Source: an uncultured Elusimicrobia bacterium
Lineage (GTDB): Bacteria > Elusimicrobiota > Elusimicrobia > 2-01-FULL-59-12
Direction of reading: 5' to 3'
Assembly (NCBI GenBank): GCA_964506645.1
Contig: CAZDML010000002.1
Span: 3,012-67,011 of the forward strand
Length of the DNA: 64,000 nt
Numbering within the stretch: the first letter of the stretch is position 1; every line of letters begins with the position of its first letter. A program made the position numbers and the translations under genes. Below, piece by piece: positions 2,452 to 39,336 of the stretch. Under the pieces are notes generated by a model that had not been told where the DNA came from, did no database searches, and worked only from the letters and a program-made list of their open reading frames with translations.

Positions 2452-2501
2452 TGGGGTTAGGGCAGTACCGGAACGATACTACGGGTTTATTGTACCACTA
2501 C

Positions 2502-4637: not shown

Positions 4638-4638
4638 C

Positions 4639-7007: not shown

Positions 7008-7016
7008 CGTAAAAGG

Positions 7017-8379: not shown

Positions 8380-8391
8380 AAGGGTCCTCGC

Positions 8392-9633: not shown

Positions 9634-9634
9634 A

Positions 9635-26342: not shown

Positions 26343-26828
26343 TTAGGACCAGGCCTCAAGCACCCGGAGTTTCCGGGCCAGAATTTCTAAATTTTCGATA
26401 TCCTCCCGATTATAACGGAGGAGGTGCTCCAGCGCTTCCTGTGATCCGCGCTGATACGAAGCCCACAAATTCATCGCCTGCAACCCATCGGTGCCTGCCG
26501 TTTCGCGGTGAATGCCCAGCTGCACTTCGATCGACTTGAGTCCACCCTTGAGCTTTTTCTTGCGACAGTCCCGTAACAGATCCTGGTGAGGAATAAGTGC
26601 GGCAAGATCCAGCCCCAGATGGTCCCGCAATACCGGGAGGTCGAAACAGGCCCCATTAAAGGTATAAAGCCGACGCACTCCTTCGAGTCCTTCCAATATT
26701 TTAGCCGCGGAAATGTCGGGGGCAACCCATTGGACCGTGCCGCGCAGCGGGCGATAGACACCCACAACCGTGATCCGACGTTCCCAAGAGGTTTCTATAT
26801 CAAGGAAGGCGAGTTGATCCAGTTCCAT
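26343..26828 (-). CDS. RNase H-like 3'-5' exonuclease family protein (YprB / PF13482-like)
   Basis: ..LAFLDIETS.. (Exo I acidic motif), ..LYTFNGACFDLPVL.. and ..LLRYNREDIENL.. (YxxxD Exo III) identify a DEDD-type RNase H-like fold. Confidence 0.55.
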   Translation of the reverse strand: MELDQLAFLDIETSWERRITVVGVYRPLRGTVQWVAPDISAAKILEGLEGVRRLYTFNGACFDLPVLRDHLGLDLAALIPHQDLLRDCRKKKLKGGLKSIEVQLGIHRETAGTDGLQAMNLWASYQRGSQEALEHLLRYNREDIENLEILARKLRVLEAWS

Positions 26829-27690
26829 CAGGACAAACGATCATAGCTTTTTCTGGGGCGATGGAAAACTGGACAGATTTGACGGGATGTGTGGCCGGCT
26901 CTCCATCAGCCTGAGGCCACAATTCGGTCTCCGCAGTAATCGTAAGCGCCTGGGCCCGCAAGGCAATCATCGGGCGATTGCCCACCGGTTTCCCCAGTTT
27001 ACCCAGAACCAAACGTGACACCAGCCGCCATTTGGGCATCCGGGGTACCAGAAAAAAATCGAGCCAGCCGTCTCGGGGGTCGGTGCTCTTAGAGAAATGC
27101 AAACCACCAGAGAAATACGGTGCGTTGCAGGCCAGTCCCATAAAGAACGTGCCTTCAATCGACCCCTTGTCCCAGCTCGCCTGGACCGAAATTGGTCGGA
27201 AATTGCGCAGACTGCGCAGCGGTTTGAGCGCCGACTTGCCGGCCTGCTGTGTGGCCGCACGACGTCCAAAGCCAGCATTGTTTAAAAAGTAGATCGAATC
27301 CATTAAACCGAGGTCGGTGGCGCGGACGTTGCCGGTAAAGAGCGCTCGAAGCGCCTCAGCAGACCGTTTTTTACGCAGTCCGAGATAGCGGGCAAAATCG
27401 TTGCATGTTCCGGCGGGCACCACACCGATCTCCATCGTCGCGAGCCGCTTACGCTGGGCAAGGACCTGGATCACACGGTTAAGGGTGCCGTCGCCGCCGA
27501 TCACGCCAATACGCGAACATCCTTCTTCCATCGCCTGACGCAGGTGATTTTCCGTCGATCGTGACTGCGTACGGTCGACGTCTCCGAACCGCGGTATCCA
27601 ACCGTACTGCTTGGCGGCTTTCGCCGCCATGTCGCGGTAGTCCCAGGCTTTTTCGCGCTTGGTGGGATTTAAAAGGAAAAAGATTTTCAT
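26800..27690 (-). CDS. diacylglycerol-kinase-catalytic-domain family lipid kinase (YegS/DgkA-type)
   Basis: ..RIGVIGGDGTLNRVIQVL.. (GGDGT motif) and ..GVVPAGTCNDFAR.. identify the DAGK_cat fold. The probable start is MKIFFLLNP. Confidence 0.8.
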   Translation of the reverse strand: MKIFFLLNPTKREKAWDYRDMAAKAAKQYGWIPRFGDVDRTQSRSTENHLRQAMEEGCSRIGVIGGDGTLNRVIQVLAQRKRLATMEIGVVPAGTCNDFARYLGLRKKRSAEALRALFTGNVRATDLGLMDSIYFLNNAGFGRRAATQQAGKSALKPLRSLRNFRPISVQASWDKGSIEGTFFMGLACNAPYFSGGLHFSKSTDPRDGWLDFFLVPRMPKWRLVSRLVLGKLGKPVGNRPMIALRAQALTITAETELWPQADGEPATHPVKSVQFSIAPEKAMIVCPDGTGSTRLP

Positions 27691-28751
27691 TATTTCACCC
27701 AAATCGGGTTGCTAAAAATCCAGGGGCGCATGCGACCGCCGATCTCCTGATCGACTTCGATGCGGTACACCCCCGGTCGGTCGAGATCCTGTTCCAGGTA
27801 CGCGCGTTTTTTCTCCAGCCAGATCAATTCTCCATTGCGAATCAAACGGATGTTACCGCGCGATGGAATCTTTACAGCCAGGAGCCCGGGTCCCTGGCGT
27901 TCAAACGTTTCCCCCATCGTAGCGCGCCGCTGGTCGTTGAACACCTCAAAAGAAAATCCCTTCGGGTCGTTCCATAAATCGAGAGAGACATACGAACGCC
28001 CCTGGCGCAGCGCGTTAAAAATCGCGGCACGGTCTGCCGCAACGTCCTGCTTCAGAGGTTCGGGCAACAGCACATGCGTACGCAGCGTTCGAAAGGCAAA
28101 ATCAAAAGGGAAAATACGCCGCTGGAAGAACAAAAAGCTTCGGCGGTTGGCATGATTGTCGAGCTCGCCGATCGCAACACAATGACCGGCCTGGGTGAGG
28201 GTGTCCCAACGGGCCAACGTCTTCTTGTGCGGGCCATGCAGATATCGCGATGGAAACAGATGGGCCCAGAGCACCCGCGGATGCGAGGTAAGAGCACTGC
28301 TCCAATCTCCGATCAAATCCCAGATGCTCAGACCCGCATAGCCTTTCACAGACCAGTCGATCCAGGGGTATGCGCGCATGCCCACAAGCGGGGCACCCCG
28401 GTGATCGGGATGGGCAATAAACCCGAACCCACCCTGGGCATTCACCGCATCGATGACCGTTTGAGGCTGAGCATGGGTTTTCCAGACAACCACCGGTTTT
28501 TGAATGTTGAACGCCAGGTAATGGTTGTAGCGCGGGGAGACCTCTTCGCCCGTCAGCATCAAAAAGGATTTTCCCGCGCGGGCATACCATTGCTCACCAC
28601 CTGCCTTTTGCGCCTCCAAACGAAAATGATCGGTGACCACAGCATAGTCGAGCCCGACCCGCAGCGCAGCCTCTGCAATGGCGGGCAGCGGTGTACGCGC
28701 GTCATACGAATACTCGGAATGGAAGTGGATGCATCCCGCGTAATCGTGCAT
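27690..28751 (-). CDS. PHP-domain (CehA/McbA-like) metal-dependent phosphoesterase
   Basis: N-terminus ..CIHFHSEYSYDA.. (the HxH of the PHP fold), ..AVVTDHF.. and ..GFIAHPDH.. are His/Asp metal-ligand motifs of the PHP superfamily. Confidence 0.6.
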   Translation of the reverse strand: MHDYAGCIHFHSEYSYDARTPLPAIAEAALRVGLDYAVVTDHFRLEAQKAGGEQWYARAGKSFLMLTGEEVSPRYNHYLAFNIQKPVVVWKTHAQPQTVIDAVNAQGGFGFIAHPDHRGAPLVGMRAYPWIDWSVKGYAGLSIWDLIGDWSSALTSHPRVLWAHLFPSRYLHGPHKKTLARWDTLTQAGHCVAIGELDNHANRRSFLFFQRRIFPFDFAFRTLRTHVLLPEPLKQDVAADRAAIFNALRQGRSYVSLDLWNDPKGFSFEVFNDQRRATMGETFERQGPGLLAVKIPSRGNIRLIRNGELIWLEKKRAYLEQDLDRPGVYRIEVDQEIGGRMRPWIFSNPIWVK

Positions 28752-28759
28752 GGGACTCC

Positions 28760-29428
28760 TTATTCGATGGGGGTTGAGAGTTGAACGTCAACGAGGGGAT
28801 GCGTCAGCCAGGACAGCATTTTAGAGAAGACCGCAAAACGGTTTCGGATGGCCGGTGTCGCTCTCACAATCACGGGGGCAGCCGGTTTCGCTGCAGGCGC
28901 AGCGGCTTTACGGGAGAGTTCTTCTCTCCGCAGGCGCTGTGCCAGAAGCGAACAGTCTTCCACGCGGGTGCACACGGCGTTGAGTCGGTGCGTCAGATGG
29001 GTGAGCATGCGGCGGTACAAACGAGCCTGTGACCGCCAGCTCGACGGCAGCTCCGCGGAGGCATGATCCAGCATGGCGGACGCCCGTTCGGTTTGACGCT
29101 GGATACGCTGTACGACCTGCGCTATCGCCAGAACTTCTTTTAAAGGAAGCGCGGTTTTGTCCCATCCACGGATCTGCGTTTCGCACTCGGAGGTACGCTG
29201 GCTAATGAGATCGAGAATCTGTCGAAGGTGATGTAGGGGATTCTGCGGCACTGTGACAGTCACCGTCACAGACGGACGTACCGCCGCACGAGACCGCGCC
29301 ACGGCAAGATCCAGGCGCTCTTCATGAAAAGCCAGACGCTCATAAGCGTCCTGAATGGCCTGCGCTAACCCTACGGGCGGCGTGTGGGCAGCGGCACTGT
29401 GATGGCCGGCTGATTGAGATAATTCCAT
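28760..29428 (-). CDS. hypothetical protein (alpha-helical, no recognisable domain); last gene of the coiled-coil operon
   Basis: ORF only. It is tightly linked downstream of the Pro/Ala-rich protein, overlapping it by 58 nt, so an internal alternative start is possible. Confidence 0.35.
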   Translation of the reverse strand: MELSQSAGHHSAAAHTPPVGLAQAIQDAYERLAFHEERLDLAVARSRAAVRPSVTVTVTVPQNPLHHLRQILDLISQRTSECETQIRGWDKTALPLKEVLAIAQVVQRIQRQTERASAMLDHASAELPSSWRSQARLYRRMLTHLTHRLNAVCTRVEDCSLLAQRLRREELSRKAAAPAAKPAAPVIVRATPAIRNRFAVFSKMLSWLTHPLVDVQLSTPIE

Positions 29429-30174
29429 AGTTTGGTCAGTAAAGAGGTATGCGGTTTCGACCCGTGCGCATCCAGCGGTGGCAGCAGACTGGGTTTAATT
29501 TCAGTCACGGTAAGACGTTCGACCGGAACCGGTACAGGAACCGGGATCGGCACAGAAGCTGCGGCAACCATTGTCGCCGGAGCTTCAACAACAATTGGAG
29601 CAGGCTCTGTTTTACGTTCGGCGATCAGCATTTCCAGCTGTTTGTGGGACTCGGCAATTTCTTTTTGCAGCGAATCGATGACATTTTTCTTCGCTTCCAG
29701 TTCGCCAGACCACTGGGCCTTCTGCGCTTCAAAGTTTTTTTCCAGAGTTTTCAGCTCGTCCTGCCATTCCTGCTTCACCGTCGCCACGGTTTTTTCAAAT
29801 TGAGTAGCCTGGAGATCTTTCATGGCCTGCTGGCTCTGGAGGAGTCCCTGCAGCTGCTGCTTGAGCTGCTGTGCGCTGATGACGTGGCCCTTTTTCAAAT
29901 CCATTTCCAGGGCTCGCAGCTGCGGATCGGCCGCGATCTGCCAGGAGACCGTCGGTGCCGAAGCCGGTGCGGGTGAAGGAGCCGATGCCACGACAGGAAC
30001 AGCCAGCGGTGGAACCGCAGGAGCGGGTGCCGGGACTCGGAGAACGGGTGCGGGGTCTGCTTTTTGCGGTGCAGGAGCAACCGCATCTGGCGAAGACACA
30101 ATGGTCAGCGTCGGGATCGAAGGAACTCCCTGCGATCCTTTGCTTTCGCTGGGCGGATGCTGGATAAATTTCAC
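29371..30174 (-). CDS. Pro/Ala-rich coiled-coil protein (267 aa)
   Basis: N-terminal APAPQKADPAPVLRVPAPAPAVPPLAVPVVASAPSPAPASAP, a central Q/E/K coiled coil (..KQQLQGLLQSQQAMKDLQ..) and a C-terminal PIPVPVPVPVE. Its ATG overlaps the stop of the upstream gene (ATGA). Confidence 0.45.
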   Translation of the reverse strand: MKFIQHPPSESKGSQGVPSIPTLTIVSSPDAVAPAPQKADPAPVLRVPAPAPAVPPLAVPVVASAPSPAPASAPTVSWQIAADPQLRALEMDLKKGHVISAQQLKQQLQGLLQSQQAMKDLQATQFEKTVATVKQEWQDELKTLEKNFEAQKAQWSGELEAKKNVIDSLQKEIAESHKQLEMLIAERKTEPAPIVVEAPATMVAAASVPIPVPVPVPVERLTVTEIKPSLLPPLDAHGSKPHTSLLTKLWNYLNQPAITVPLPTRRP

Positions 30175-32228
30175 GCCGCTTTTCCTTGGGTCGGACGAGT
30201 TTTGAGCGATTCCAGCGCGGATTTCATGTCCTGCATGGACTGTTTAATGTCGCCTAACGCTTTTTGTGCCACGGGTGTTGCCGCCGCTGGCTGAGTCGCT
30301 TTCTTTTCCAAATCCAATTTTACACTATTCCATTCCGATTCTTTCTTGGTCCATTCCGTTTCCTTTTTCGCATGCTCTTGCTGCAGCTTATTGATTTCAT
30401 TCTGCACATTTGTGAAAGCATCTTTGAGAGCACTTTGGGCCGATTTCCACTGCTCTTCCTTGGCCGACCATTCCGCCAGCGTGTGCTGCGCTTCTTTGTA
30501 ATCGGATTGGCTGCGATTCAGATCTTTTTCAAGCATGTCCTGGCGCGCTTTGAGTGCTTCCATTTCTTTCTGTGCGTCATTCATATCCTGCTGATGGGCC
30601 AGAATCGCTTCTTTCTGTAGCTGCAGTTCCTGTTGGCGAGCGTCGAGCACCGTACGCAACGAGCCTAGCTCCAATTGCATGGCCTGGCGGGATTCCTCGG
30701 CTTCTTTTTCTTTCATTTGCACTTCAGCAATACGAAGCAACAGTTCCTTGGACTGTTTTTCATACTGATCGCGCTCTTCCACCAATCGCGACTCTGCCTG
30801 CTGGACATGCTGCTGAGCAAGATTGAGCTGTTGTTTAAATTCAGCAATGGCAGCTGTTTTTTCATGCTCGATTTTTGTGCGTTCCTTTTCAAGACGCTGC
30901 TGGTATATCACGGGCATCTCATGGAGCACCTCTTCGCGCGCTTGGAGGCGAATCGACTCTGCCTGTTTTTTCCATTCACTGCGCTCCACCTCAAACCCAC
31001 GTTTCATATTCGCGATTTCAATGCGTAGCTGTGCAATATCTTCTTCGCGCTGCGTTACGCCGTATCGGGCCGTGTCGCGTTCGGAGCGGAGTTGCGACAG
31101 CATCCCTTCCCAGTACTGTGCCCGTTCCTGATCACGGCGGACAAATTCCCGTTTAATATCTTCTTCGCGCGATACGACCTGCGATTCCAGGCGCTGGCGA
31201 ATCTCAAGATGATCCTGCTCAAGTTGGTCGAGTTTGGTCTGCCAACGCAAGCGCTCCTGCTGTTGCTGGACGTCCGTCTGCTGAACCTGTGACTGTAAAA
31301 GTGCGATCTGGGCTTTGAGCTGCCCTTCGTCGCGCAAGCGTTTTTCCAGTTCGGCCTGCATTTTCTGCTCATAGGTCTGCCGGTCCTGCAGGGCTGTCTC
31401 TTTGATGCGCTGAAGCATTTCATCTTTCTGGTCCAGCGCATCTTGCAATTTTTCATTGTCGAGCTCGGCCTGACGTTTCAGCTGGCTAATCACTTCATCG
31501 CGCTCACGCGTGGAGGTCATCCACTGATTTTTTTCTTCGTGATAGCGACGTTCGATCTCGCGCATCTGGCGCGTTAAATTCTGTTCGACTTCGCGCTCCA
31601 TCTTTTCACGTTCTTTAAGCTGATTCTTCAGCGCGATCATCCAGGTTTCCCGCTCATCGGCAATCCGGCGTTCCAGATCTTTAATCTGGCCTTCCGCCTT
31701 GCCGCGCGACTGCTGCAGTTCCTGTTCGTATTTTTCCCGGCGCAATTTTTCCTGCATGTCACGCAGCTGCTGTTCAACGCGCACGGAAAGATTTTCATCC
31801 TCCTTGGCCTTGAGCGTCTGGATCATAAGCTTCTCGTGTTCTTCCTTTAACTGGCGTTCCAGGTCCTGGACCTGTTTTTCCATGGCTTTCTTGGATTCCA
31901 TCTGTTCCTGAAAACGGCGTTCCATTTCCTGCATTCGGGCTTCCAGGAGATTGGTCATAGGGGCGGCACCGGGCGTCGGGGGCATTCCCATAGGCGTCAT
32001 CGGACGCGGCGGCATATTGGGCATGGACGGCTGTGGCACAGCGGGCGCAGGCGTTGGAGCGGGCGCGGCGGCCTTGGGCATCGCAGGGGGCATGACACTG
32101 CCCATCGCTGCAGGCGGTGGGGGCGGCGGCGGGGGTACCGGCCGGCGCGCGGGCGGCGGCGGGGGTACAGGTTTCGAGGCTCCGGGTCCCGGCGGGGGCG
32201 GCGGTGTCATTCGCGATTCTTCAGCCAT
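30171..32228 (-). CDS. polyproline (FH1-like) N-terminus + ~580-aa continuous coiled-coil protein
   Basis: MAEESRMTPPPPPGPGASKPVPPPPPARRPVPPPPPPPPAAMG.. followed by uninterrupted E/K/Q/R/L heptad-rich sequence to the C-terminus. An AAAGGAG Shine-Dalgarno sequence lies 8 nt upstream. No signal peptide or TM. Confidence 0.6.
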   Translation of the reverse strand: MAEESRMTPPPPPGPGASKPVPPPPPARRPVPPPPPPPPAAMGSVMPPAMPKAAAPAPTPAPAVPQPSMPNMPPRPMTPMGMPPTPGAAPMTNLLEARMQEMERRFQEQMESKKAMEKQVQDLERQLKEEHEKLMIQTLKAKEDENLSVRVEQQLRDMQEKLRREKYEQELQQSRGKAEGQIKDLERRIADERETWMIALKNQLKEREKMEREVEQNLTRQMREIERRYHEEKNQWMTSTRERDEVISQLKRQAELDNEKLQDALDQKDEMLQRIKETALQDRQTYEQKMQAELEKRLRDEGQLKAQIALLQSQVQQTDVQQQQERLRWQTKLDQLEQDHLEIRQRLESQVVSREEDIKREFVRRDQERAQYWEGMLSQLRSERDTARYGVTQREEDIAQLRIEIANMKRGFEVERSEWKKQAESIRLQAREEVLHEMPVIYQQRLEKERTKIEHEKTAAIAEFKQQLNLAQQHVQQAESRLVEERDQYEKQSKELLLRIAEVQMKEKEAEESRQAMQLELGSLRTVLDARQQELQLQKEAILAHQQDMNDAQKEMEALKARQDMLEKDLNRSQSDYKEAQHTLAEWSAKEEQWKSAQSALKDAFTNVQNEINKLQQEHAKKETEWTKKESEWNSVKLDLEKKATQPAAATPVAQKALGDIKQSMQDMKSALESLKTRPTQGKAA

Positions 32229-32249
32229 GGCAAGCTCCTTTCAAACGGT

Positions 32250-35200
32250 TTACGACGCTTTCGGTTTTTTCTTCAAATCGAGTGACGCGCGCAGGCGGCT
32301 GGCCCACGTGCTGAGCTGCGTATTGGACGGATCCAGTGACAGCGCCCGATCCACGGCCTCGGCGGCACGCTGCTCATCGCCCTGGGCATGGTAGGCCAGA
32401 GCCAGGTACTGATACGCTGCACCCCAATGAGCATTCTTCTCCAAACATTCCTGAAACGACCGGATAGCATCGGGCCACTGCTGCGCTTGATAAAAATGGA
32501 CACCGGCCTCAAACGACGACCAGGCCGCCGCGCCCAGGCGCTCGGTTTTGGCACTGGTCGGCGAGAGCACGCCGTCTTTAAGTCCTTCGACCTGCGTGCG
32601 CAGGTTGTCCACCAGCTTTCGAGTGCTGTCGCGCAGCGCCGTCATTTCCTTGTCCTGTTTTTCAATCTGGGTCATGAGCTGCGTAAAGAGGGTTTCACGT
32701 TCTTTAATCAGCGTGTCAAAGTGTTTCTTCATCTCGGCCTGCTGGTCCTGAATCTGTTTGATCTGTGTTTCGAGCTGGCGACGCTGAGCTTCAAGTGCGT
32801 GCTGGGCGGATGCGTCGCGAGCGGCTGCATTTTTGGAAGACTGCATATCGCGCTCCTGCATCGCAGCCAGCTGTGTCTGCACCGTTTTTAGCTGAGTCGC
32901 CACGCGGGCCTGCTCGGTCTTATGGTGTTGGCGCACGCGGTTTAATTCTTCCGTCGACTGCTTTTTCAGCTTCTCCAGTTCTTTGCGACGTTTCTCCGCT
33001 TCTTCCTGCAGTCGACGGTCGCGCCATTCCAGGCGGTTTTTTGCCACCCGCAAATCTTCTTCCTTAATATGCAGTTGTGATTCCCAGGTCGATTGCTGCT
33101 GTTGGGTGACCTCTTTCAAATGGGCAAGCTGAACACGCAGCGGTTCAAGGTCTGTCTCGATCTGCCCCTTCAAGCGCTCCTGCTGGGTTTCCATCTCAGA
33201 TTCTTTGAGGCTGAGTTCCATGTGCAGCTTGGTCATGGACTCTTCCATGCGGCGCACTTCTTGTTCCGCATGTTTTTGCAGCTGCTGAATATCTTCTTCG
33301 AGCTGTCTCTTTTCCTGATCCAGTGCCTGCTTTTCATTTTGCCACTGTTCCAGAGACGAGCCCCACTGCAACTCTTCGCTGGATTCGCGTTTCTGAATTT
33401 CGGCGACCGCACGACTCATCTCCGCTTCTTTGTCAGCCACCTGACGCTGATAATGGGCTTGGAGTTCCTCCAGCTCCTTCTCACGTTTTCGGATCTGCGA
33501 CAAGAGAGCCTGGCGGTCCTGGTCATGTGCCGTTTCCAGCGATTTGATTTCGCTCTGCAGCCGTACGTCCCACTGCGCTACTTCCTGCCGCAGCTCGCTG
33601 ATTTCATTGGCTTTTTCTTTGCGCAGCGCTTCCCAATGATCCTGCGCCTGCGCAAGATGGCTTTTGAGCTGGTCAATCTGAGTGCGCAGCGCCGTATTGG
33701 TGGATCTCCAGGAATTGACCTTTTGATTAAATTCTTCGCCCAGCACTTTCAAGCGGTCTTTGGAGGAGGTCAGGAGATCTTCCAACTCCTGTTCCTTGGA
33801 CGCCAACTGCGATTCAAAAGATTTGCGGTCTTTTTCTGTCTGCGTTTGCAACGCGGTCAGCGTTTCCTGGACCTTGCGTTTTTCTGTGTCAAAGTGGGTG
33901 CTCTTTTCCACAATCTGCTGATCACGCTGCATCTTGGCGCGGTTGAGTTCGTTTTCCAGCTGACGGATTTCCTTTTCACGGTTGGCCAGCTGTCGTTCCG
34001 ACACTTCCTTATGATCTTTGAGCTTCCATTCCAATTCGTCTTTGGCTTTTTCCAGCTGGAAGCGTTCTTCAGCAAATTGTTTGGCCAAACGGTCGAGTTC
34101 GCCTTCCCGCTCAGCTTCTTTAGCCAGCAAATTGGAGCGCAGCGTCGTGATTTCGGAATCGCGAGCGGCACACTTTTTCGCCCATTCTTCTTTGAGCTGA
34201 ACCAGCTGTTCTTTGATCTTTTCTTCTTTGTCATGGCCGCGGCGCATGAGCGTGGACAACGCACGGTCGTAGCGGTCAAGGGTCTGCTGGTGTTTGGCCT
34301 GATCTTTGACGAGCTGCTGCTGAATATGGGCAATGCGTTCCTCGCGAACGCGGATTTCCTGAGGGAAGCCGGCCTGCGACTGTTTGAGTTCTCCCTCAAT
34401 CTGCTGCAGCATGTCTTGCAACGTGCGGGCTTTGACGGTGGCCGAATGGATCAGCTCGCGCTTCTTGGCTTCGTGCGCCACGGCCTGCTGGCGCACCTGT
34501 TCTTCGAGCTGTTCAACCAAAAGGGTTTTTTCGGCGTGTTGTACTTTGCCGGAATTGACCAGGGCTTCCTGCTCAGAGCGCAGGGCATCGAGCTTGGCTT
34601 TGAATTCGGCACGCGCCTCACGAAACTGGGTATCCCGCGTCTCGCGTTCGGTCTTGGCTTTCTGCGTGATCTGCTGCAGCTGTTCTTTTAGTGCTTTCTG
34701 TTCGTTTTCCAGATCAAAAAGCTGTTTGTCGTGTGTCAATTTTTCATCTTTCAATGCTTCCTGCAGCTGCTGGTAGCGATCTTGGAGCGGCTGCACCTGC
34801 TGGTCAAGGATTTTTTGTTCTTGTTCCAGTTTCTGGGCATGCAGCATTTCCTGCTTCTGAATTTCGGCTTCCAGCGCCAGCTTCTCTTTTTCTTTCTTGT
34901 CGACTTCCTGACGCCAATAAATCTGGATGCGTTCTTTGTCCCCTTGAGCCGCGGCCAGCTGCTTTTCCATCGAAGCCCGCTCGGCGTCAATCATCTGCTC
35001 CTGCTCATGGGCAGCGGCAACCAACTCTTTGTAGCGGGTTTCCAAGTTCTGGCGCAGAGCACCCAACTGATTGGCCTTTGACTGCACTGACGCTTTGTAC
35101 TGTTCACGTGCCTGAGCAATTTCTTTTTCTAAATTGAGGATTATGCTCTGTGCTTTGGCTGTTTCTCTCTGACAGGCGTCCCGTTTTTCCTGCATGGCCT

Positions 35201-37217
35201 GGTCAAGCAGTTCCGGCAGGTGGGCCAAGCGAGCGGCCATATCTGCACGCTCTTTTTCTTTGGCTTCCATCGTCTTCTGGAACTTAACGTCTTCTTCACG
35301 GCGCACAGCCATAAAAGCTTCAAGCGCTGCACGGCGTTCTTCAAATTTCTTGCGCAACCGCTCTTCCTGCTCCGCATTGCGCTTGCGCAGCATTTCTTCT
35401 TTGGCTTTGAAATCTTTTTCCAGCGTTTCAATGGCGTTACGGTGGTCAATCTCGTAGCTTTGGGACGATTCCTGAAGCTTGGTGATTTCGCGTTCAAGCG
35501 CACGCACGCGAGAGCGGGTCGCTTCCACCTGGCGCGAGAGCGCCGTTTCTTCCGTAGTGTATTTTCCTTTCAGCGCGGCTTCCTGAGTCGCAAGCGTGGC
35601 GGCGAGTTCTTTGATCGCCTGCTCTTTAAGTCTAATCTCTCCCTGGAAGCGCAGGCGCTGCTCCTGCAGTCCTTGTTCGGCTTCGCCTTTCTGACGTTCC
35701 AGCTCGACCGTTTCGGCCTGTAAAACACGTGCAGCATCTTCGTTCTGCTGCGTCAAATCCTGCAAGCGTTTTTGAGCACTGGCTTCCAGTGTCGCTTGTT
35801 CCTCGCGCAGCTCAACCGAGCGCGCTTCAAATTGTTTCAGCTTCTCCTTCTGCTGATCTTCCAACGCCTGGAGCTGAACCGCGAGCACTCGCTTTTGCTC
35901 ATTGATAGCACCCATGCGCTGCCCGTACTCTGAATCGAGTTTGCGTAGAGCCGTGCGGATGGATTCCTGAGTCTGGGTGAGTTCTGCTTCTTTATTTTCC
36001 AGGGAGATTTTCCAGCTCTGCTGTTCCTCTGCCAACTGACGCTGCACGGACTGCACCTGCGCTACGGCAGAGGCCACGGTCTCTTCTAAAATTTTCTGTG
36101 CCTGTTCCGCGCGGGTCTTGGCATCCGTTTCCACAAGCACTGATTTCATCTTAAGCTGCTGAATTTGTTCCTCGCGTGACTGCAAGAGCTGCTGCCAGGA
36201 TTGGTTTTCCTTTTCAAAATGGGCTTTGAGCGCGGTGAGTTTTTCCAACGCGCGGTCGTGTCGGTGCGTAATTTCTTGCAGACGCTTTTCCTGTTCGAGC
36301 TGCCAGGCGGTCTGACGTTCCTGCAGCGCCGAGTGCAGCCGAGTGCGTTCTTCTTCCTTCGACTTCATCGCTTCTTCCCAGGCTTTGCGGCGTTCGGCCC
36401 ACTGTTTCTCCAGCGTCTGCAAACGGGTTCGCCAGAGTTCTTCAGCCGCCTTCTTCTGCGCGTCCTGATCCTGCATTTCTTTCTGCAGGCCGGTCTCGCG
36501 GCGTGCCAGTTCCTGCTTGAGTGCCATCAGTTCTTCATCGCGGGCTTGGATCACTTCCTGCCATTTCTGGCGTTCCTGAAGGAGCCGGGCTTCCTGCACC
36601 TGCACCGATTCCTCGGCCTGGCGCAGCGCCTGCACACGGGATTCTTCTTCTTTGTCCGTGAGATTCTTTTTTTCGATGTGTTCGGCTTCCACCTGACGCG
36701 CGGCCTGTTCAAGCTTCTTTTCGCGGTCGGCAAGCTGGCGCGTCCAGGCCGCAGAATCTTCGTTCAGCTTGCGTTCGAGGAATTTAATTTCCCGCTGCGC
36801 ATCCTGCTGGAGAAACTGCAGGGACTGCTGATTGGATTCGCGCTTTGTCTTAAACGTGATATCGAGTTTTTCCAGCTGCGAGCGCGTCGCCTGGATTTCT
36901 TTATCCAAGTTCTGCAGGCGCACCTGCGCTTCGGCGCGTTCTTTGAGGATCAGGTCTTCGAGGTTCGGCTTATCGGATTTGGGAGTGGACCCGTCTTGGG
37001 CCGAACCGGCTTCCGGTGTGGCGGGCGTTTCTGCAGGAGGAGGTCCGGCCGGTTTTTTGACCGACCGTACTGTTTTGGGGGCTGTTGGTTTCGTGGAAAT
37101 GGGAGCTGACGGAACAGACGCCTCGGACGCAGGAGTGTCCTGAGCCTTGTCTTTCGAAGGCGCAGGATCTGCAGGTTTCTTCCCCCACAGGTTTCGGAAA
37201 CGGTCGGACATGGACAT
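32250..37217 (-). CDS. giant (~1656 aa) coiled-coil protein with a C-terminal TPR domain
   Basis: About 1550 aa of E/K/Q/R/L-rich predicted coiled coil, then TPR-like ..AHWGAAYQYLALAYHAQGDEQRAAEAVDRALSLDPSN... The start is MSMSDRFRNLW (ATG 37217-37215) with a GGGAG Shine-Dalgarno sequence. The track's upstream MHVKK start would lie inside the predicted promoter. Confidence 0.65.
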   Translation of the reverse strand: MSMSDRFRNLWGKKPADPAPSKDKAQDTPASEASVPSAPISTKPTAPKTVRSVKKPAGPPPAETPATPEAGSAQDGSTPKSDKPNLEDLILKERAEAQVRLQNLDKEIQATRSQLEKLDITFKTKRESNQQSLQFLQQDAQREIKFLERKLNEDSAAWTRQLADREKKLEQAARQVEAEHIEKKNLTDKEEESRVQALRQAEESVQVQEARLLQERQKWQEVIQARDEELMALKQELARRETGLQKEMQDQDAQKKAAEELWRTRLQTLEKQWAERRKAWEEAMKSKEEERTRLHSALQERQTAWQLEQEKRLQEITHRHDRALEKLTALKAHFEKENQSWQQLLQSREEQIQQLKMKSVLVETDAKTRAEQAQKILEETVASAVAQVQSVQRQLAEEQQSWKISLENKEAELTQTQESIRTALRKLDSEYGQRMGAINEQKRVLAVQLQALEDQQKEKLKQFEARSVELREEQATLEASAQKRLQDLTQQNEDAARVLQAETVELERQKGEAEQGLQEQRLRFQGEIRLKEQAIKELAATLATQEAALKGKYTTEETALSRQVEATRSRVRALEREITKLQESSQSYEIDHRNAIETLEKDFKAKEEMLRKRNAEQEERLRKKFEERRAALEAFMAVRREEDVKFQKTMEAKEKERADMAARLAHLPELLDQAMQEKRDACQRETAKAQSIILNLEKEIAQAREQYKASVQSKANQLGALRQNLETRYKELVAAAHEQEQMIDAERASMEKQLAAAQGDKERIQIYWRQEVDKKEKEKLALEAEIQKQEMLHAQKLEQEQKILDQQVQPLQDRYQQLQEALKDEKLTHDKQLFDLENEQKALKEQLQQITQKAKTERETRDTQFREARAEFKAKLDALRSEQEALVNSGKVQHAEKTLLVEQLEEQVRQQAVAHEAKKRELIHSATVKARTLQDMLQQIEGELKQSQAGFPQEIRVREERIAHIQQQLVKDQAKHQQTLDRYDRALSTLMRRGHDKEEKIKEQLVQLKEEWAKKCAARDSEITTLRSNLLAKEAEREGELDRLAKQFAEERFQLEKAKDELEWKLKDHKEVSERQLANREKEIRQLENELNRAKMQRDQQIVEKSTHFDTEKRKVQETLTALQTQTEKDRKSFESQLASKEQELEDLLTSSKDRLKVLGEEFNQKVNSWRSTNTALRTQIDQLKSHLAQAQDHWEALRKEKANEISELRQEVAQWDVRLQSEIKSLETAHDQDRQALLSQIRKREKELEELQAHYQRQVADKEAEMSRAVAEIQKRESSEELQWGSSLEQWQNEKQALDQEKRQLEEDIQQLQKHAEQEVRRMEESMTKLHMELSLKESEMETQQERLKGQIETDLEPLRVQLAHLKEVTQQQQSTWESQLHIKEEDLRVAKNRLEWRDRRLQEEAEKRRKELEKLKKQSTEELNRVRQHHKTEQARVATQLKTVQTQLAAMQERDMQSSKNAAARDASAQHALEAQRRQLETQIKQIQDQQAEMKKHFDTLIKERETLFTQLMTQIEKQDKEMTALRDSTRKLVDNLRTQVEGLKDGVLSPTSAKTERLGAAAWSSFEAGVHFYQAQQWPDAIRSFQECLEKNAHWGAAYQYLALAYHAQGDEQRAAEAVDRALSLDPSNTQLSTWASRLRASLDLKKKPKAS

Positions 37218-37237
37218 AGGTTTATTCTCCCGCAGTG

Positions 37238-37265
37238 AGTTTAGTCCGTATTGACAGCATTTCAA
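37238..37265 (-). promoter_or_regulatory. candidate sigma70-type promoter of the coiled-coil operon: -35 TTGAAA (37265-37260), 16-nt spacer, -10 TAAACT (37243-37238)
   Basis: Read on the minus strand inside the 37218-37404 gap. It is followed by GGGAGAATAAACCT-ATG. Further upstream are an AT-rich block and the CTCAG/CTGAG motif array. Confidence 0.35.
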
Positions 37266-37367
37266 GGCTTTTTTTACATGCAACGAAATGGGGAGAAATG
37301 GCCCAAAACAGCTCAGAATGCAGAATTCAATGCTCAGAGCGATAAAAAGACTACCTATATATAAGAT

Positions 37368-37404: not shown

Positions 37405-39021
37405 TTATTCCGGGCGCAACTGCTTCATGAACTCGCTGATTTCTTTGTCGTTGGGGTCGATTTCCAGCACGCGGCTCCAGAGCTTGCGAGCGCGGGTATG
37501 GTCATCGAGCAGGAAGAAGGCAGAGCCCATGATCTTCATGGACGTCACATCGTTCGGGTTTAGATCCAGGATGTCCTGGCATTTCTTGATGGCGACATCG
37601 TACTTGCCTTCCAGAATCGCCTGGCGAGCATCGAAGATCTTCTGATCGACCGGGCTGAAGAGTTCCGGACCCTTCGGCCGTTCGGTCTTGTCAAGATTGG
37701 TGTCAGCTTCCATCTTGTTGAGGAGCGACAGGAGCTTCTCGTTGCGCGGATCTTTGAAGTACGCCTGACGCAAAGCAGCAATCGCGCTCTTGGTGTCGTC
37801 GTTGACGTAAGAGAGCACGCCCTTGCGCACCATCGCCGCCGATTCCTCATTACCCATGGCTGACGGTACGTTCGCCACCACTTTCTGGAATTTCTCAACG
37901 AGCACCTGGACTTTCTTGTTTGACGGATCCACGTCCAAGGACGCCTGCAGCTGTTCCTGCGCTGCCAGGAAGTTCCCGGCTTCCATTGCCTTGTAGGCTT
38001 TTTGGATGAGCGCATGGACGTTTTCTTCGCGGCGTTCCAGGACGGAACGGCCAAATTTAAAGGAGACGGAGATGCGGCTTGAGGTTCCCAAGGTGTGCAG
38101 GCCCAAGGCATAGTCAAAGGTCAAGCTCTTTATGGAATAGCCAAAACCCACATCGGTTTCGCGCAGGCCTTCACCCAAGTCGTATTGAATCCCCACACGG
38201 CCTTTGAATTTCTTTGTAAAGCCAAATTCCCCACCCAAATGGAGTCCGGTGTTGGCCGCGAGGTTTTTATCGATATCTGTCGAAAGCAAGAGGCGGCGTT
38301 TGAAGAACTGGTCGGAAAAACCGAAGCGGAAAACCAGAGGCAGTGTGTCGGACGTATCGCCCGAGGTCTTGGCGTAGACGTCCCGGATGGTCAGACCAAA
38401 GCGACGCAGACCATCGCGCGTATCGAGCAGAGCCCCCAGGTCAGCTGCCAGAGAAGAATCGGACGAGGTATCCACAGCACGAGTGATCTGGCGAATCGAG
38501 GTTCCAATTGCCACATGGTCGACCACCTTGCGGCCGTAGGAGAAGCTGTTGGCCGATTCGCTCACCTGGAAGCCACCGCCCTTTTCTACGCTCGTATAGG
38601 TCTGCGTGTTTGGGTCGATTTTGGCGGTCACACGTTCAAAGCCGCCGCTGGAGAGTTGTGTCATGCTGACGCCCCAGGCGCTGCCTCCCTTCTTGGACGG
38701 ATGCACATAGGAGTAGAAATTGTATTTGGTTTCACCGTAGAGGGTGGCCTGCAGGAGGGTCAATTCTTTGCGGGTGAGCTGGGACATGCCCGCCGGGTTC
38801 CAGTAGGTGGCGCTGGCATCATCCGCAACGCTGACGAAGGCACCGCCCATGGCCAGGCTGCGGGCGCCGGCGCCGTAGGACAGGAATTCCGTCACCTGGC
38901 CGCCGGTGGCTTCAGTGTGGCCAATCGACGGAACGAGTGCGATGAACAAAATTAAAACGCACGCTCTCTGTAGAGAGAACATGCGCCCAAAAAACCCAGC
39001 AAAGGTCTTCGTTAAGTTCAT
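37405..39021 (-). CDS. FadL/PorV-family-like outer-membrane beta-barrel (N-terminal ~330 aa) fused to C-terminal TPR repeats
   Basis: Signal peptide (..CVLILFIALVPSIGHTEA). The N-terminal motif ..FLSYGAGARSLAMGGAFVSVADDASATYWNPAGMS.. matches the FadL/TodX/PorV family plug-hatch region (FadL: ..GLGRAYSGEGAIADDA..NPA..). Alternating beta-strand patterns follow to about residue 330. The C-terminal 200 aa are TPR-like (..AYKAMEAGNFLAAQEQLQASLDVDPSN.., ..ILEGKYDVAIKKCQDILDLNPND..). No Shine-Dalgarno-like sequence. Confidence 0.5.
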   Translation of the reverse strand: MNLTKTFAGFFGRMFSLQRACVLILFIALVPSIGHTEATGGQVTEFLSYGAGARSLAMGGAFVSVADDASATYWNPAGMSQLTRKELTLLQATLYGETKYNFYSYVHPSKKGGSAWGVSMTQLSSGGFERVTAKIDPNTQTYTSVEKGGGFQVSESANSFSYGRKVVDHVAIGTSIRQITRAVDTSSDSSLAADLGALLDTRDGLRRFGLTIRDVYAKTSGDTSDTLPLVFRFGFSDQFFKRRLLLSTDIDKNLAANTGLHLGGEFGFTKKFKGRVGIQYDLGEGLRETDVGFGYSIKSLTFDYALGLHTLGTSSRISVSFKFGRSVLERREENVHALIQKAYKAMEAGNFLAAQEQLQASLDVDPSNKKVQVLVEKFQKVVANVPSAMGNEESAAMVRKGVLSYVNDDTKSAIAALRQAYFKDPRNEKLLSLLNKMEADTNLDKTERPKGPELFSPVDQKIFDARQAILEGKYDVAIKKCQDILDLNPNDVTSMKIMGSAFFLLDDHTRARKLWSRVLEIDPNDKEISEFMKQLRPE

Positions 39022-39336
39022 CGTTTATTCGGTAACCCCGCTATCCGCCTAACTTCAGGAGAGGACCGGAGGCTTTGCGTCGCCAGATTTCTCTGACTTT
39101 GCCGTTATCGTGAACGACTTAAATACACGTCCCGTGCTACAGAATGAGTTTAAACTTGGAACTATTAAAAAGCTATTGAAAAATCAATCTGTTAATGTAA
39201 ATTACCTGTCAAGCACCCTAATTTTAGATATTCAAAATCAGGCTGATTTTTAAGCTTGTTTTAAATGCTTGTGTAAACTGTGATTTTTCTGTGAGGGGGC
39301 CCGATTGAAGGAAAATCTAGGGAGAGTTATGGGAGA
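39022..39336 (-). promoter_or_regulatory. 315-bp AT-rich intergenic region between the giant gene and the PorV-like gene; contains a perfect TTGACA hexamer (minus strand, 39212-39207) and other -35/-10-like elements
   Basis: This is the largest non-coding stretch in the window and is markedly AT-rich (39120-39300) relative to the rest of the window. The motifs were read directly. Confidence 0.3.
39233..39251 (-). terminator. possible intrinsic terminator hairpin downstream of the giant gene (AAAATCAG-GC-CTGATTTT, perfect 8-bp inverted repeat)
   Basis: Inverted repeat read directly at 39234-39250, 85 nt after the giant gene stop. The minus-strand RNA would form the stem followed by a weak U/A-rich tract (GAAUAUCUAAAAUU). 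Confidence 0.3.

What the first reader, a model, noticed from the sequence alone, without database searches (positions are those of the whole stretch)
28760..37283. Operon of giant low-complexity coiled-coil proteins (1656 aa with TPR, 685 aa, 267 aa, 222 aa) next to the surface-protein locus
Four translationally coupled genes follow a predicted promoter at 37238-37265, with ATGA overlaps at 30171-30174, an overlap at 29371-29428, and a 21-nt gap at 32229-32249. They encode about 2,830 aa of mostly E/K/Q/R/L heptad-rich sequence. None has a signal peptide or TM segment. The largest ends in a TPR domain.

Bacterial coiled-coil proteins this long are uncommon. Known examples, such as Scy/FilP, crescentin, CCRPs and AglZ, are cytoskeletal or scaffold elements. 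Given the position directly downstream of the PorV-like and giant-adhesin genes, these could form a cytoplasmic scaffold or filament. Such a scaffold could position or anchor the surface apparatus, or be a contractile or elastic element. The overall combination of adhesin, OM barrel-TPR and giant coiled coils with TPR and polyproline is not a described system.
Basis: inference. Interest (0 to 1): 0.8.

Follow-up and report, generated by a model that had tools for sequence, protein, structure and literature searches.

The report
Coiled-coil rods of an Elusimicrobiota envelope machine
Four real genes for long, enzyme-free rod proteins belong to an undescribed gene cluster, conserved across the phylum Elusimicrobiota, that joins a giant surface protein and an outer-membrane barrel to flagellar-type motor parts (FliG, FlbD, MotA, MotB) in bacteria that mostly lack flagella, usually behind a c-di-GMP riboswitch.

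Summary
The four minus-strand ORFs are real, with small corrections (1655 aa from ATG 37217; the 4-nt overlap is GTGA, not ATGA). The two large proteins are heptad-rich rods with no signal peptide or TM segment. The largest ends in TPR repeats. The predicted promoter is conserved in all six related loci.

No protein matches a known family: no SMC heads, no chemoreceptor, receiver or defence domains.

Related sequences give the context. The 685-aa protein has a Pro-rich N-terminus and a specific conserved core, with only 140 representatives among 1.84 billion proteins. It is found almost only in Elusimicrobiota. In 73 loci it sits in a recurring cluster: giant surface protein; c-di-GMP-I riboswitch; PorV-like barrel with TPR; membrane protein with FliG_M/FliG_C and TPR; optional ~600- or ~1600-aa coiled coil; the 685-aa family; FlbD; MotA; MotB.

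In the window's lineage the FliG–FlbD–MotAB genes lie at a second locus. This was shown for two related genomes.

Best reading, from gene neighbourhood only: these are cytoplasmic scaffold or coupling rods of a proton-driven, c-di-GMP-controlled surface apparatus. I found no description of this cluster in the papers searched.

The parts
37238..37279 (-). Conserved promoter-like element: upstream GTAAAAAAAGC, -35 TTGAAA, 16-nt hexamer spacer by the scan, -10 TAAACT
   Evidence: Consensus scan. Conserved in the window and five distinct related loci, in an intergenic region with 42% mean identity. Found once per locus.
32250..37217 (-). 1655-aa coiled-coil protein (CC1656). N-terminal 'DRFRNLWGKK' peptide, ~85-aa P/A/S/T/K-rich low-complexity linker, ~1,450 aa of coiled coil, C-terminal TPR.
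   Evidence: Homologues of 1558-1851 aa sit in the same position in 13 distinct loci: 42-48% identity within the clade, 15-18% outside it.
32313..32531 (-). C-terminal TPR module of CC1656 (aa ~1563-1635)
   Evidence: Pfam TPR_2/TPR_1/TPR_16. PDB consensus TPR proteins. A similar C-terminal TPR module is present on the PorV-like and FliG-like proteins.
30171..32228 (-). 685-aa protein (CC685): Pro-rich disordered N-terminus, conserved helical core, variable coiled coil, short C-terminal helix
   Evidence: 165 relatives in the genome collection. Almost all of the 80 kept loci are Elusimicrobiota.
31920..32228 (-). Polyproline-rich N-terminal region of CC685 (aa 1-103)
   Evidence: pLDDT below 50 and no secondary structure. 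At least 15% Pro in the first 110 aa in 63 of 71 homologues.
31494..31916 (-). Conserved core of the CC685 family (aa 105-245)
   Evidence: 15 invariant residues, E130 to E215. Only 140 representatives with E<=1e-3 among 1.84 billion proteins, usually within the first ~250 residues. One long helix, pLDDT about 90.
29371..30174 (-). 267-aa protein (P267): P/A-rich, short coiled coil, P/A-rich, then a C-terminal docking-type peptide
   Evidence: The family is found only in window-clade loci L001, L002, L004, L008 and L013. The shared architecture is shown.
29395..29445 (-). C-terminal motif SLLTKLWNYLNQPAITV of P267
   Evidence: The motif [FL]xx[LF]Wx[YW]LN[EKQ]P[AIV][IL] recurs at the C-termini of small proteins after CC685, and of CC685 homologues, in many loci.
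28760..29428 (-). 222-aa helical protein (P222)
   Evidence: Only one full-length homologue, 55% identical, in 5.8 billion clusters. It has the same neighbours in L001.
28784..28828 (-). C-terminal motif FSKMLSWLTHPLVDV of P222
   Evidence: WL[MT]HP[LM]V[DE] is shared with the second small proteins of L008 and L013.
37405..39021 (-). PorV/PorQ-family outer-membrane barrel with C-terminal TPR (538 aa). It is the first gene after the riboswitch.
   Evidence: NF033709 PorV_fam 107.9 bits, cut-off 90. Pfam UPF0164 and TPR. Upstream of the coiled-coil genes in 38 of 73 loci.
39027..39112 (-). c-di-GMP-I (GGC variant) riboswitch aptamer, ending 5 nt before the PorV-like start codon
   Evidence: Rfam RF03167 59.9 bits, gathering score 59. 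The same arrangement is seen in 43 of 46 loci with a called PorV-like gene.
38945..38988 (-). 15-bp hairpin plus U-tract inside the first codons of the PorV-like ORF. Candidate expression platform.
   Evidence: Terminator scan. Fold z-score -3.98. Function not tested.
39337..62127 (-). Giant T/S/A/G/V-rich surface protein (at least 7596 aa) with a T9SS-type C-terminal domain below threshold
   Evidence: A giant gene lies upstream of the riboswitch in most loci.
26800..28751 (-). CehA/PHP metallohydrolase (27690-28751) and YegS-type lipid kinase (26800-27702). Both are translationally coupled downstream. Whether they belong to the system is uncertain.
   Evidence: The lipid kinase follows the small proteins in the window-clade loci where the region is held (L002, L004, L005, L008, L013) but not elsewhere.

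Best explanation
The four genes encode cytoplasmic, non-enzymatic rod and adaptor proteins. They are components of an envelope-spanning apparatus conserved across the phylum Elusimicrobiota.

The recurrent gene set is:
- a giant beta-rich surface protein with a T9SS-like C-terminal domain;
- a c-di-GMP-I riboswitch;
- a PorV/PorQ-type outer-membrane barrel with periplasmic TPR;
- an inner-membrane protein with a ~190-aa periplasmic domain, one TM helix, and cytoplasmic FliG_M and FliG_C domains plus TPR;
- zero or one extra coiled-coil protein (~600 or ~1600 aa, the latter ending in TPR);
- the Pro-rich CC685 family;
- small adaptors, or FlbD;
- MotA and MotB.

In the window's lineage the FliG-FlbD-MotAB genes have moved to a second locus. 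The coiled-coil genes there have their own conserved promoter.

Proposed working (inferred, not shown): proton-driven MotAB units act on the FliG domains. The coiled-coil proteins would be about 80 nm (CC685) and about 220 nm (CC1656) long if fully extended as continuous two-stranded coiled coils. They would form a cytoplasmic scaffold or mechanical link. Attachment would be through short terminal peptides ('LWxYLNxP'-type) and the C-terminal TPR modules. The scaffold would position, space or couple the motor units relative to the PorV-like/adhesin complex in the outer membrane. The closest analogy is AglZ in the Myxococcus gliding machine.

Expression of the envelope part responds to c-di-GMP.

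What is shown: gene reality, architecture, family specificity, conserved neighbourhood, the riboswitch, and the split locus.

What is inferred: physical association, the scaffold role, peptide-TPR docking, and any movement of the adhesin.
For: Rods without signal peptide, TM segment or enzymatic domain.

The CC685 core is a narrow, specific family, not generic coiled coil: 140 representatives among 1.84e9 proteins, with 15 invariant residues.

Of 165 genomic relatives, almost all of the 80 kept loci are Elusimicrobiota from several named lineages: Elusimicrobia, Endomicrobiia/Endomicrobiales, Elusimicrobiales and Elusimicrobiaceae.

In 73 loci with a CC685 homologue (many contigs are truncated):
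- FliG-like protein upstream in 49;
- PorV-like protein upstream in 38;
- extra coiled coil upstream in 27;
- MotA downstream in 30;
- MotB downstream in 23.

Domain identities of the neighbours:
- FliG_C E 1e-24 to 1e-28 and FliG_M.
- TIGR00207 113.6 bits.
- T. maritima FliG 1lkv E 6e-39.
- MotA_ExbB, and MotB_plug plus OmpA.
- FlbD E 1e-23.

Genes are separated by 0-50 nt or overlap in L010, L017, L045 and L059, and by 16-90 nt in L069.

Synteny is not just collinearity. Outside the window's clade the flanking housekeeping genes differ and PorV-like identity falls to ~40%, yet the core order persists.

The riboswitch lies upstream of the PorV-like gene in 43 of 46 loci.

The window's clade keeps the motor at a second locus:
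- FliG-like/FlbD/MotA/MotB-like lie at 2.29-2.31 Mb on the same 2.72-Mb chromosome as L005.
- They lie on another contig of the same genome as L013.
- Both FliG-like proteins keep the TM segment, periplasmic region, FliG_MC and TPR; a leader is clear in P0146 only.

Shared terminal peptides are seen across otherwise unrelated cluster proteins.

Shared C-terminal TPR modules occur on the PorV-like, FliG-like and CC1656 proteins.

The literature notes orphan motAB, flbD and fliG in non-flagellated Elusimicrobiota, with 'role unclear' (10.1101/2022.07.08.499144).
Against: All the evidence is comparative genomics. No interaction, localisation or phenotype data exist.

The 64-kb window itself holds no FliG, FlbD, MotA or MotB gene. 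In its clade the coiled-coil genes have their own promoter, so they could act independently.

No aptamer was found at the relocated motor loci.

The whole window is co-directional. Coupling continues into a metallohydrolase and a lipid kinase, with folate-metabolism genes (MTHFR, FolD) further downstream on the same strand. Adjacency inside the clade is therefore weak evidence by itself.

CC1656 is recognisable outside the clade only by size, position, terminal peptide and TPR (15-18% identity).

P222 is nearly an orphan.

The function of the FliG/MotAB module in these bacteria is unknown. Cultured gut or intracellular symbiotic species are described as non-motile.

The peptide-TPR docking idea has no direct support.
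Confidence: 0.55

Rival explanations
1. A free-standing cytoskeleton. The proteins are coiled-coil-rich cytoskeletal elements for cell shape, division or polarity, like crescentin, FilP/Scy or CCRPs. Their position next to the adhesin and motor genes reflects inherited gene order, not shared function.
For: Long rods without other domains. Weak generic profile similarity to crescentin, lamin, vimentin and myosin rods. In the window's clade they have their own promoter and lie apart from the motor genes. Downstream genes are housekeeping.
Against: The linkage to FliG-like, PorV-like and MotAB persists across named lineages whose flanking genes differ. Gaps are 0-50 nt or overlapping. The TPR module and terminal peptides are shared with the envelope and motor proteins.
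Confidence: 0.2
2. Exported cargo or surface fibrils. The rods are secreted or displayed through the neighbouring envelope complex, with the conserved terminal peptides acting as export signals.
For: Conserved short peptides at protein termini in several unrelated cluster proteins. Location beside an outer-membrane protein and a giant surface protein. Charged coiled coils do form surface fibrils in other bacteria (own knowledge).
Against: No Sec or Tat signal and no TM segment. No export gate, ATPase or ABC transporter in the conserved cluster. FliG domains and MotA loops are cytoplasmic in every known system (own knowledge).
Confidence: 0.08
3. An anti-phage or other accessory island. This would be a Zorya-like system in which MotAB-type proteins work with long coiled coils.
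For: Zorya couples a MotAB-like channel to a long coiled-coil tail (PMC11946911, listed).
Against: No PADLOC model hit beyond one 19-bit coiled-coil match. The cluster sits at a fixed place beside core genes across a phylum. Its partners are FliG and FlbD, not ZorC or ZorD.
Confidence: 0.03
4. SMC-like or chromosome-organising proteins, or spurious low-complexity ORFs.
For: TIGR02168 SMC 20.9 bits over the arm region only. SMC arms appear among the generic PDB hits.
Against: The curated cut-off is 567 bits. There are no ATPase heads and no hinge. The ORFs are conserved in length, order and core sequence in dozens of genomes.
Confidence: 0.02

Closest known systems
Myxococcus xanthus Agl-Glt gliding (focal-adhesion) machinery with the coiled-coil protein AglZ (own knowledge)
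   Same: A proton-driven MotAB/TolQR-type motor, TPR-rich envelope proteins, outer-membrane barrels and a surface adhesin. It also has a >1000-aa cytoplasmic coiled-coil protein that scaffolds the complex. This is the closest functional analogy for the rods.
   Different: No homology was found between the rods and any known family, and they have no receiver domain. The motor partner here is a FliG-domain protein with FlbD and genuine MotA/MotB, not AglRQS with GltG/J. Gliding has not been observed in this phylum.
Bacteroidota type IX secretion and gliding apparatus: GldLM motor, PorV, giant adhesin SprB (own knowledge; PMC8754138 and PMC9143113 listed)
   Same: A PorV/PorQ-family barrel encoded next to a multi-thousand-residue surface protein whose C-terminus resembles a T9SS sorting domain. 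The link to a 5:2-type ion-driven motor is the same idea.
   Different: The motor is MotAB with FliG instead of GldLM. No other T9SS core gene is seen in the flanks. The CTD is below threshold: 20.4 bits against a cut-off of 23. T9SS has no counterpart of the giant cytoplasmic coiled coils.
Flagellar rotor-stator module: FliG, FlbD/SwrD, MotA, MotB
   Same: Genuine FliG_M/FliG_C, FlbD, MotA and MotB domains flank the CC685 family in most lineages. They are retained elsewhere in genomes of the window's clade.
   Different: There is no FliG_N. The FliG domains are fused to a signal/TM segment, a periplasmic domain, a TM helix and a C-terminal TPR. No rod, hook, export-gate or C-ring genes are in the cluster. 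Most of these bacteria lack flagellar structural genes. The coiled-coil proteins have no flagellar counterpart that I could detect.
Bacterial coiled-coil-rich cytoskeletal proteins: crescentin, FilP/Scy, CCRPs
   Same: Very long heptad-rich rods without enzymatic domains. Weak generic profile similarity (crescentin E 5e-3).
   Different: No specific sequence relationship. These proteins carry a Pro-rich N-terminus, a family-specific core, terminal docking-type peptides and TPR. They are embedded in an envelope and motor gene cluster.

Membership tests
SMC / MukB / Rad50 | N- and C-terminal ABC ATPase head halves (Walker A, Walker B, signature motif) | tested here: not met
   No SMC_N or AAA hit in Pfam. 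TIGR02168 scores 20.9 bits against a cut-off of 567, over arm positions 230-415 only.
SMC / MukB / Rad50 | Central hinge domain between two antiparallel arms | tested here: not met
   No hinge domain in Pfam or NCBIfam. PDB hits cover coiled-coil arms only.
Methyl-accepting chemoreceptors | Conserved MCP signalling hairpin domain | tested here: not met
   No MCPsignal hit. Only a generic hit to 2ch7, E 2e-3, with the variable coiled coil.
AglZ-type gliding scaffold (Myxococcus) | N-terminal (pseudo)receiver domain followed by a long coiled coil | tested here: not met
   No Response_reg domain in any of the four proteins.
AglZ-type gliding scaffold (Myxococcus) | Association with a MotAB/TolQR-type motor and an envelope/adhesin complex | tested here: inconclusive
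   Gene neighbourhood with MotA/MotB, FliG-like, PorV-like and the giant protein in related genomes. Physical association was not tested.
Intermediate-filament-like CCRPs (crescentin, FilP, Scy) | Long uninterrupted heptad or hendecad rod without other domains | tested here: met
   Heptad coverage of 59% and 56% against 18% and 7% in shuffles. Helices of 150-200 aa.
Intermediate-filament-like CCRPs (crescentin, FilP, Scy) | Nucleotide-independent self-assembly into filaments | not testable with these tools
   Needs purified protein or imaging.
Flagellar motor proteins (FliG / FlbD / MotA / MotB) | FliG_M+FliG_C, FlbD, MotA_ExbB, and MotB_plug+OmpA domains in the proteins of the finding or in the window | tested here: not met
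   None in the four proteins. tblastn against the window finds only TPR similarity. The domains are present in neighbours of the homologues in other lineages and at a second locus in clade genomes.
Type IX secretion cargo/shuttle module | PorV/PorQ-family outer-membrane barrel | tested here: met
   NF033709 scores 107.9 bits against a cut-off of 90, for the 538-aa neighbour.
Type IX secretion cargo/shuttle module | Type A C-terminal sorting domain on the cargo | tested here: inconclusive
   TIGR04183 scores 20.4 bits against a cut-off of 23. The C-terminal ends of T9SS-dependent proteins match at E 1e-7 to 1e-3. Pfam Por_Secre_tail E 0.086.
Type IX secretion cargo/shuttle module | Core translocon and motor genes (SprA/Sov, PorK/L/M/N) in the genome | not tested
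   Only the window and 20-kb loci were available.
c-di-GMP-I (GEMM-I) riboswitch | Aptamer sequence and structure reaching Rfam's gathering score, placed 5' of a gene | tested here: met
   RF03167 scores 59.9 bits against 59, full length. RF01051 or RF03167 is found in related loci. 43 of 46 loci match with my own model.
c-di-GMP-I (GEMM-I) riboswitch | Binding of c-di-GMP and a ligand-dependent change of expression | not testable with these tools
   Needs in-line probing or reporter assays. I do not know the ligand of the GGC variant.
Zorya and other defence systems | Match to ZorA/B/C/D or another PADLOC model | tested here: not met
   Only PbeC at 19.3 bits on a coiled-coil stretch.

The most novel reading that the evidence does not exclude
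Elusimicrobiota possess a previously unrecognised kind of surface machine. A flagellum-derived rotor-stator (membrane-anchored FliG, FlbD, MotAB), with no flagellum attached, is coupled to a PorV-like outer-membrane complex that carries a giant adhesin. The coupling runs through giant cytoplasmic coiled-coil rods and TPR/peptide contacts. The machine moves, tensions or remodels the adhesin under c-di-GMP control. That would be a third, independently assembled type of motor-driven adhesin apparatus, beside Bacteroidota gliding and Myxococcus Agl-Glt. The rods of this window would be its cytoplasmic track or tether.
Probability: 0.35. Interest if true: 0.9.

Novelty: categorically new. Interest (0 to 1): 0.8.

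Why it matters
Most Elusimicrobiota carry fliG, flbD and motAB but have no flagellum. A published genome survey called the role of these genes unclear.

This analysis places those orphan motor genes in one conserved cluster. The cluster also holds a PorV-like outer-membrane protein, a giant surface protein, specific giant coiled-coil proteins and a c-di-GMP riboswitch. That turns an annotation oddity into a concrete, testable candidate machine with a defined parts list.

If confirmed, three things would follow:
- Flagellar rotor-stator parts can be re-used to power something other than a flagellum.
- PorV/CTD-type surface display would extend beyond the Bacteroidota superphylum.
- A new family of very long bacterial coiled-coil proteins would gain a defined cellular context.

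It would also provide a second-messenger-controlled surface system in a poorly studied, mostly uncultured phylum of very small cells.

Tried and rejected
- **Family scans.** Pfam, NCBIfam and PADLOC scans of the four proteins gave only TPR plus sub-threshold coiled-coil noise: FAM76, SMC arm, flagellin, PbeC.
- **PDB searches.** A profile of the CC685 family and the single CC1656 sequence gave only generic coiled coils and designed TPRs.
- **P222 homologues.** The database search found one homologue. The exact-sequence look-up of the window's own protein found no record.
- **Motor genes in the window.** tblastn for FliG-like, MotA and MotB found none.
- **Promoter at the motor loci.** The conserved promoter motif was sought upstream of the relocated FliG-FlbD-MotAB loci and was absent. 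There is no evidence of co-regulation through that element.
- **Riboswitch at the motor loci.** My aptamer model found none at those loci.
- **Literature.** Seven full-text searches (Elusimicrobia with FliG, MotA or coiled-coil; FliG-like with MotAB; FliG with PorV; the GGC riboswitch variant; E. minutum) found no description of the cluster. The one relevant item is the remark on orphan motor genes.
- **Fold search not run.** The AlphaFold model is three long helices, which would only match other helices.
- **Peptide-TPR complex not attempted.** The tool returns no contact information.
- **Ideas dropped.** Two ideas were considered and dropped for lack of any supporting hit. One was that CC685 is a diverged FliH, the gene that follows fliG in flagellar operons. 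The other was that the periplasmic part of the FliG-like protein is FliF-like. No Pfam hit supports either.
- **Residue-level check not done.** I did not check the FliG torque-helix charges rigorously, because the reference numbering rests on memory.

Full report
**1. The observation**

The ORF listing shows four consecutive minus-strand ORFs at 32250-37283, 30171-32228, 29371-30174 and 28760-29428.

- The first ORF probably starts at ATG 37217, behind GGGAG, which gives 1655 aa.
- The 685/267 junction is a 4-nt GTGA overlap, not ATGA.
- The 267/222 overlap of 58 nt is real.
- The 21-nt gap before the 685-aa gene holds an AAGGAG Shine-Dalgarno.
- Coupling continues past the fourth gene. TAAGGAGTCCCATG links it to a CehA/PHP metallohydrolase gene, which overlaps a YegS-type lipid kinase gene.
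- Every credible gene in the 64-kb window is on the minus strand.

**2. Nature of the proteins**

- The two large proteins have 43-44% E+K+Q+R. Neighbouring proteins have 20-22%.
- A crude heptad score covers 59% and 56% of them, against 18% and 7% after shuffling.
- Neither has a TM-like segment.
- The 267-aa protein is mostly P/A/V-rich with one short coiled coil. The 222-aa protein is helical.
- Pfam finds only TPR, at the C-terminus of the largest protein. The PDB search agrees.
- AlphaFold on the 685-aa protein with 34 homologues gives a disordered Pro-rich 103-aa N-terminus. Helices of 197, 152 and 160 aa and a short terminal helix follow.
- If fully extended as continuous two-stranded coiled coils, the rods would be about 220 nm and 80 nm long.

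**3. Known families**

- There are no SMC heads or hinge. TIGR02168 scores 20.9 bits against a cut-off of 567, on the arm only.
- There are no MCP, receiver or defence-system domains.
- A profile of the 685-aa family hits only generic coiled coils in the PDB.

**4. Relatives**

- The 222-aa protein has one homologue (55% identity) in 5.8 billion clusters. It has the same neighbours.
- The 685-aa protein has 33 database homologues. All the named ones are Elusimicrobia.
- Their alignment shows a Pro-rich N-terminus, a conserved core (aa ~117-233, 15 invariant residues), a variable coiled coil and a conserved C-terminal peptide.
- The core alone finds only 140 representatives among 1.84 billion proteins. 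It usually lies within the first ~250 residues of proteins that are mostly 600-1200 aa long. It is a specific family, not compositional noise.
- A scan of 185,579 species genomes found 165 relatives. Almost all of the 80 loci kept are Elusimicrobiota. They carry names from several lineages: Elusimicrobia, Endomicrobiia/Endomicrobiales, Elusimicrobiales and Elusimicrobiaceae.

**5. Conserved neighbourhood**

In the nearest relatives (L002, L004, L005, L008, L013) the order is:

- giant protein (up to 14,833 aa);
- PorV-like barrel with TPR;
- a ~1600-aa coiled coil;
- a 673-980-aa CC685 homologue;
- one or two small proteins;
- CehA in some, then the lipid kinase.

In these relatives FolD is ~70-75% identical to the window's. 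The PorV-like protein is 67-75% identical and the coiled coils 34-49%.

Outside this clade the flanking housekeeping genes differ and PorV-like identity is ~40%. A core order still persists.

I labelled ORFs in all loci with phmmer. The 73 loci with a CC685 homologue gave these counts, although many contigs are truncated:

| Neighbour | Loci |
|---|---|
| ~650-aa protein upstream | 49 |
| PorV-like protein upstream | 38 |
| Extra coiled coil upstream | 27 |
| MotA downstream | 30 |
| MotB downstream | 23 |

Identities of the neighbours:

- The ~650-aa protein has a signal/TM segment, a ~190-aa periplasmic region and a TM helix. FliG_M, FliG_C (E 1e-24 to 1e-28) and a C-terminal TPR follow.
- The ~262-aa and ~226-aa proteins are MotA and MotB.
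- A small ORF between CC685 and MotA in several loci of the Elusimicrobiales group is FlbD (E 1e-23).
- Genes are separated by 0-50 nt or overlap in L010, L017, L045 and L059, and by 16-90 nt in L069.

**6. The window's lineage has a split cluster**

- The window contains no FliG, MotA or MotB.
- A FliG-like-TPR protein (P0146) lies on the same 2,724,539-bp chromosome as locus L005. It is followed by FlbD, a 56-aa ORF, MotA and a MotB-sized protein.
- Another (P0058) lies on a second contig of the genome that holds L013. It is followed by FlbD, MotA and MotB.
- Both keep the TM segment, periplasmic region, FliG_MC and TPR; a leader is clear in P0146 only.
- So the motor genes are retained but relocated in this clade.

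**7. Regulation**

- Rfam finds a c-di-GMP-I-GGC aptamer at 39027-39112. It ends 5 nt before the PorV-like start codon.
- c-di-GMP-I or its GGC variant occupies the same place in related loci, sometimes in tandem.
- A covariance model built from nine aptamers finds 60 copies in 69 sources, all in operon orientation. 43 of 46 loci with a called PorV-like gene have one. In most loci it ends 3-8 nt before the start codon, or overlaps the longest-ORF start.
- No aptamer precedes the relocated motor loci.
- A 15-bp hairpin with a U-tract lies just inside the PorV-like ORF. Its role is untested.
- In the window's clade the 141-187-nt spacer before the ~1600-aa gene holds a conserved element. The alignment consensus is GTAAATAAAgcCTTGAAA-N17-aCTAAACT (N17 in all six copies).
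- This element occurs once per locus. It was not significant as a bare consensus match but is supported by footprinting.

**8. Shared short features**

- A C-terminal peptide of the type [FL]xx[LF]Wx[YW]LN[EKQ]P[AIV][IL] ends the small proteins after CC685 in many loci.
- The window's 267-aa protein carries it as LLTKLWNYLNQPAITV. The 222-aa protein carries a variant, FSKMLSWLTHPLVDV. The same type ends CC685 homologues of several lineages.
- In the window's clade CC685 homologues mostly end in LLxWL[RK]P...KAA. The window's own protein has ALESLKTRPTQGKAA instead, without the Trp.
- The ~1600-aa proteins begin with a related basic, often Trp-containing peptide.
- The 267-aa family is detectable only within the clade.
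- A similar two- to three-repeat TPR module ends the PorV-like, FliG-like and ~1600-aa proteins.
- These features suggest peptide-TPR or peptide-membrane docking. This is inference only.

**9. Interpretation**

The best-supported reading is that the four proteins are cytoplasmic rods and adaptors of a phylum-wide apparatus regulated by c-di-GMP. The apparatus links a MotAB/FliG/FlbD motor module to a PorV-like outer-membrane protein and a giant surface protein.

The C-terminus of the giant protein resembles a T9SS sorting domain but is below threshold.

The nearest functional analogies, from my own knowledge, are two systems:

- the Myxococcus Agl-Glt machine with its coiled-coil scaffold AglZ;
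- the Bacteroidota GldLM-PorV-SprB system.

Membership in either is not supported.

The rival readings are a free-standing cytoskeleton, exported fibrils, a defence island, and SMC-like proteins or artefacts. They are weighed in their own sections.

**10. Novelty**

One preprint notes that non-flagellated Elusimicrobiota carry motAB, flbD and fliG of unclear role. None of seven full-text searches found a description of this cluster or of these coiled-coil families.

A newer Pfam accession (PF27695) is attached to some Elusimicrobiales homologues in the database. It is absent from the local Pfam copy, so part of the family may already be catalogued as a domain of unknown function.

All functional statements rest on comparative genomics and need experimental tests.

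Noticed in passing
window 39027-39112 (-): c-di-GMP-I-GGC riboswitch aptamer ending 5 nt before the start codon of the PorV-like gene. The same arrangement is found in 43 of 46 related loci, sometimes as tandem aptamers. In most of them the aptamer ends 3-8 nt before the start codon or overlaps it, which suggests control at translation initiation.
   Followed up: yes
window 38945-38988 (-): A 15-bp G+C-rich hairpin followed by UUUUAAUUUUGUU lies inside the first ~25 codons of the PorV-like ORF. The second in-frame ATG sits in its 5' arm. It may be the riboswitch expression platform (terminator or start-codon mask).
   Followed up: partly
window 61604-63991 and 62000-62127 (-): The first ~50 residues of the 7596-aa ORF are Arg-rich and look out of frame. 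An overlapping ORF in another frame runs off the window end. The giant gene is probably longer, with a frameshift or assembly error near 61.6-62.1 kb. Related genomes encode proteins of up to 14,833 aa here.
   Followed up: no
window 39337-39816 (-): The last ~160 residues of the giant protein resemble a T9SS type A sorting domain or FlgD-Ig fold but are below threshold (TIGR04183 20.4 bits against 23). The gene sits beside a PorV-family gene, in a phylum outside the Bacteroidota superphylum.
   Followed up: partly
window 16128-17273 (-): A GAF + HD_5 (HD-GYP-type) protein, a candidate c-di-GMP phosphodiesterase, about 10 kb downstream on the same strand as the riboswitch-controlled genes.
   Followed up: no
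window 26800-28751 (-): A CehA/PHP-family metallohydrolase and a YegS-type lipid kinase are translationally coupled to the last coiled-coil gene. The kinase keeps this position in the window-clade loci where the region is held, but not elsewhere.
   Followed up: partly
window 20991-24560 (-): A 1189-aa NHL-repeat beta-propeller protein with C-terminal TPR, syntenic in the related loci where the region is held. Its function is unknown.
   Followed up: no
L085 10001-14095; L087 10001-14003: The relocated motor operon of the window's clade: FliG-like-TPR, FlbD, a conserved 56-60-aa ORF, MotA, MotB. It has no riboswitch and lacks the promoter motif of the coiled-coil operon.
   Followed up: partly
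L009, L012, L017, L045 (downstream of the CC685 homologue): In these lineages CC685 is followed by another large (1212-1519 aa) low-charge protein instead of MotAB. In L017 a second PorV-like gene follows as well.
   Followed up: no
C-termini of cluster proteins, window and loci L002-L084: Endings such as -KAA, -KAS and -AAA are enriched: 33 of 153 coiled-coil or FliG-like proteins end in AA, AS, GA or VA, against 35 of 637 other ORFs. This could be a degron or a recognition tag. It is unexplained.
   Followed up: partly
L040 (~1820-9900): One lineage appears to encode a 1208-aa fusion of the FliG-like protein with coiled-coil sequence, followed by a 963-aa coiled coil. A run of X in the translated neighbouring gene shows the assembly is imperfect, so this may be an artefact.
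   Followed up: no
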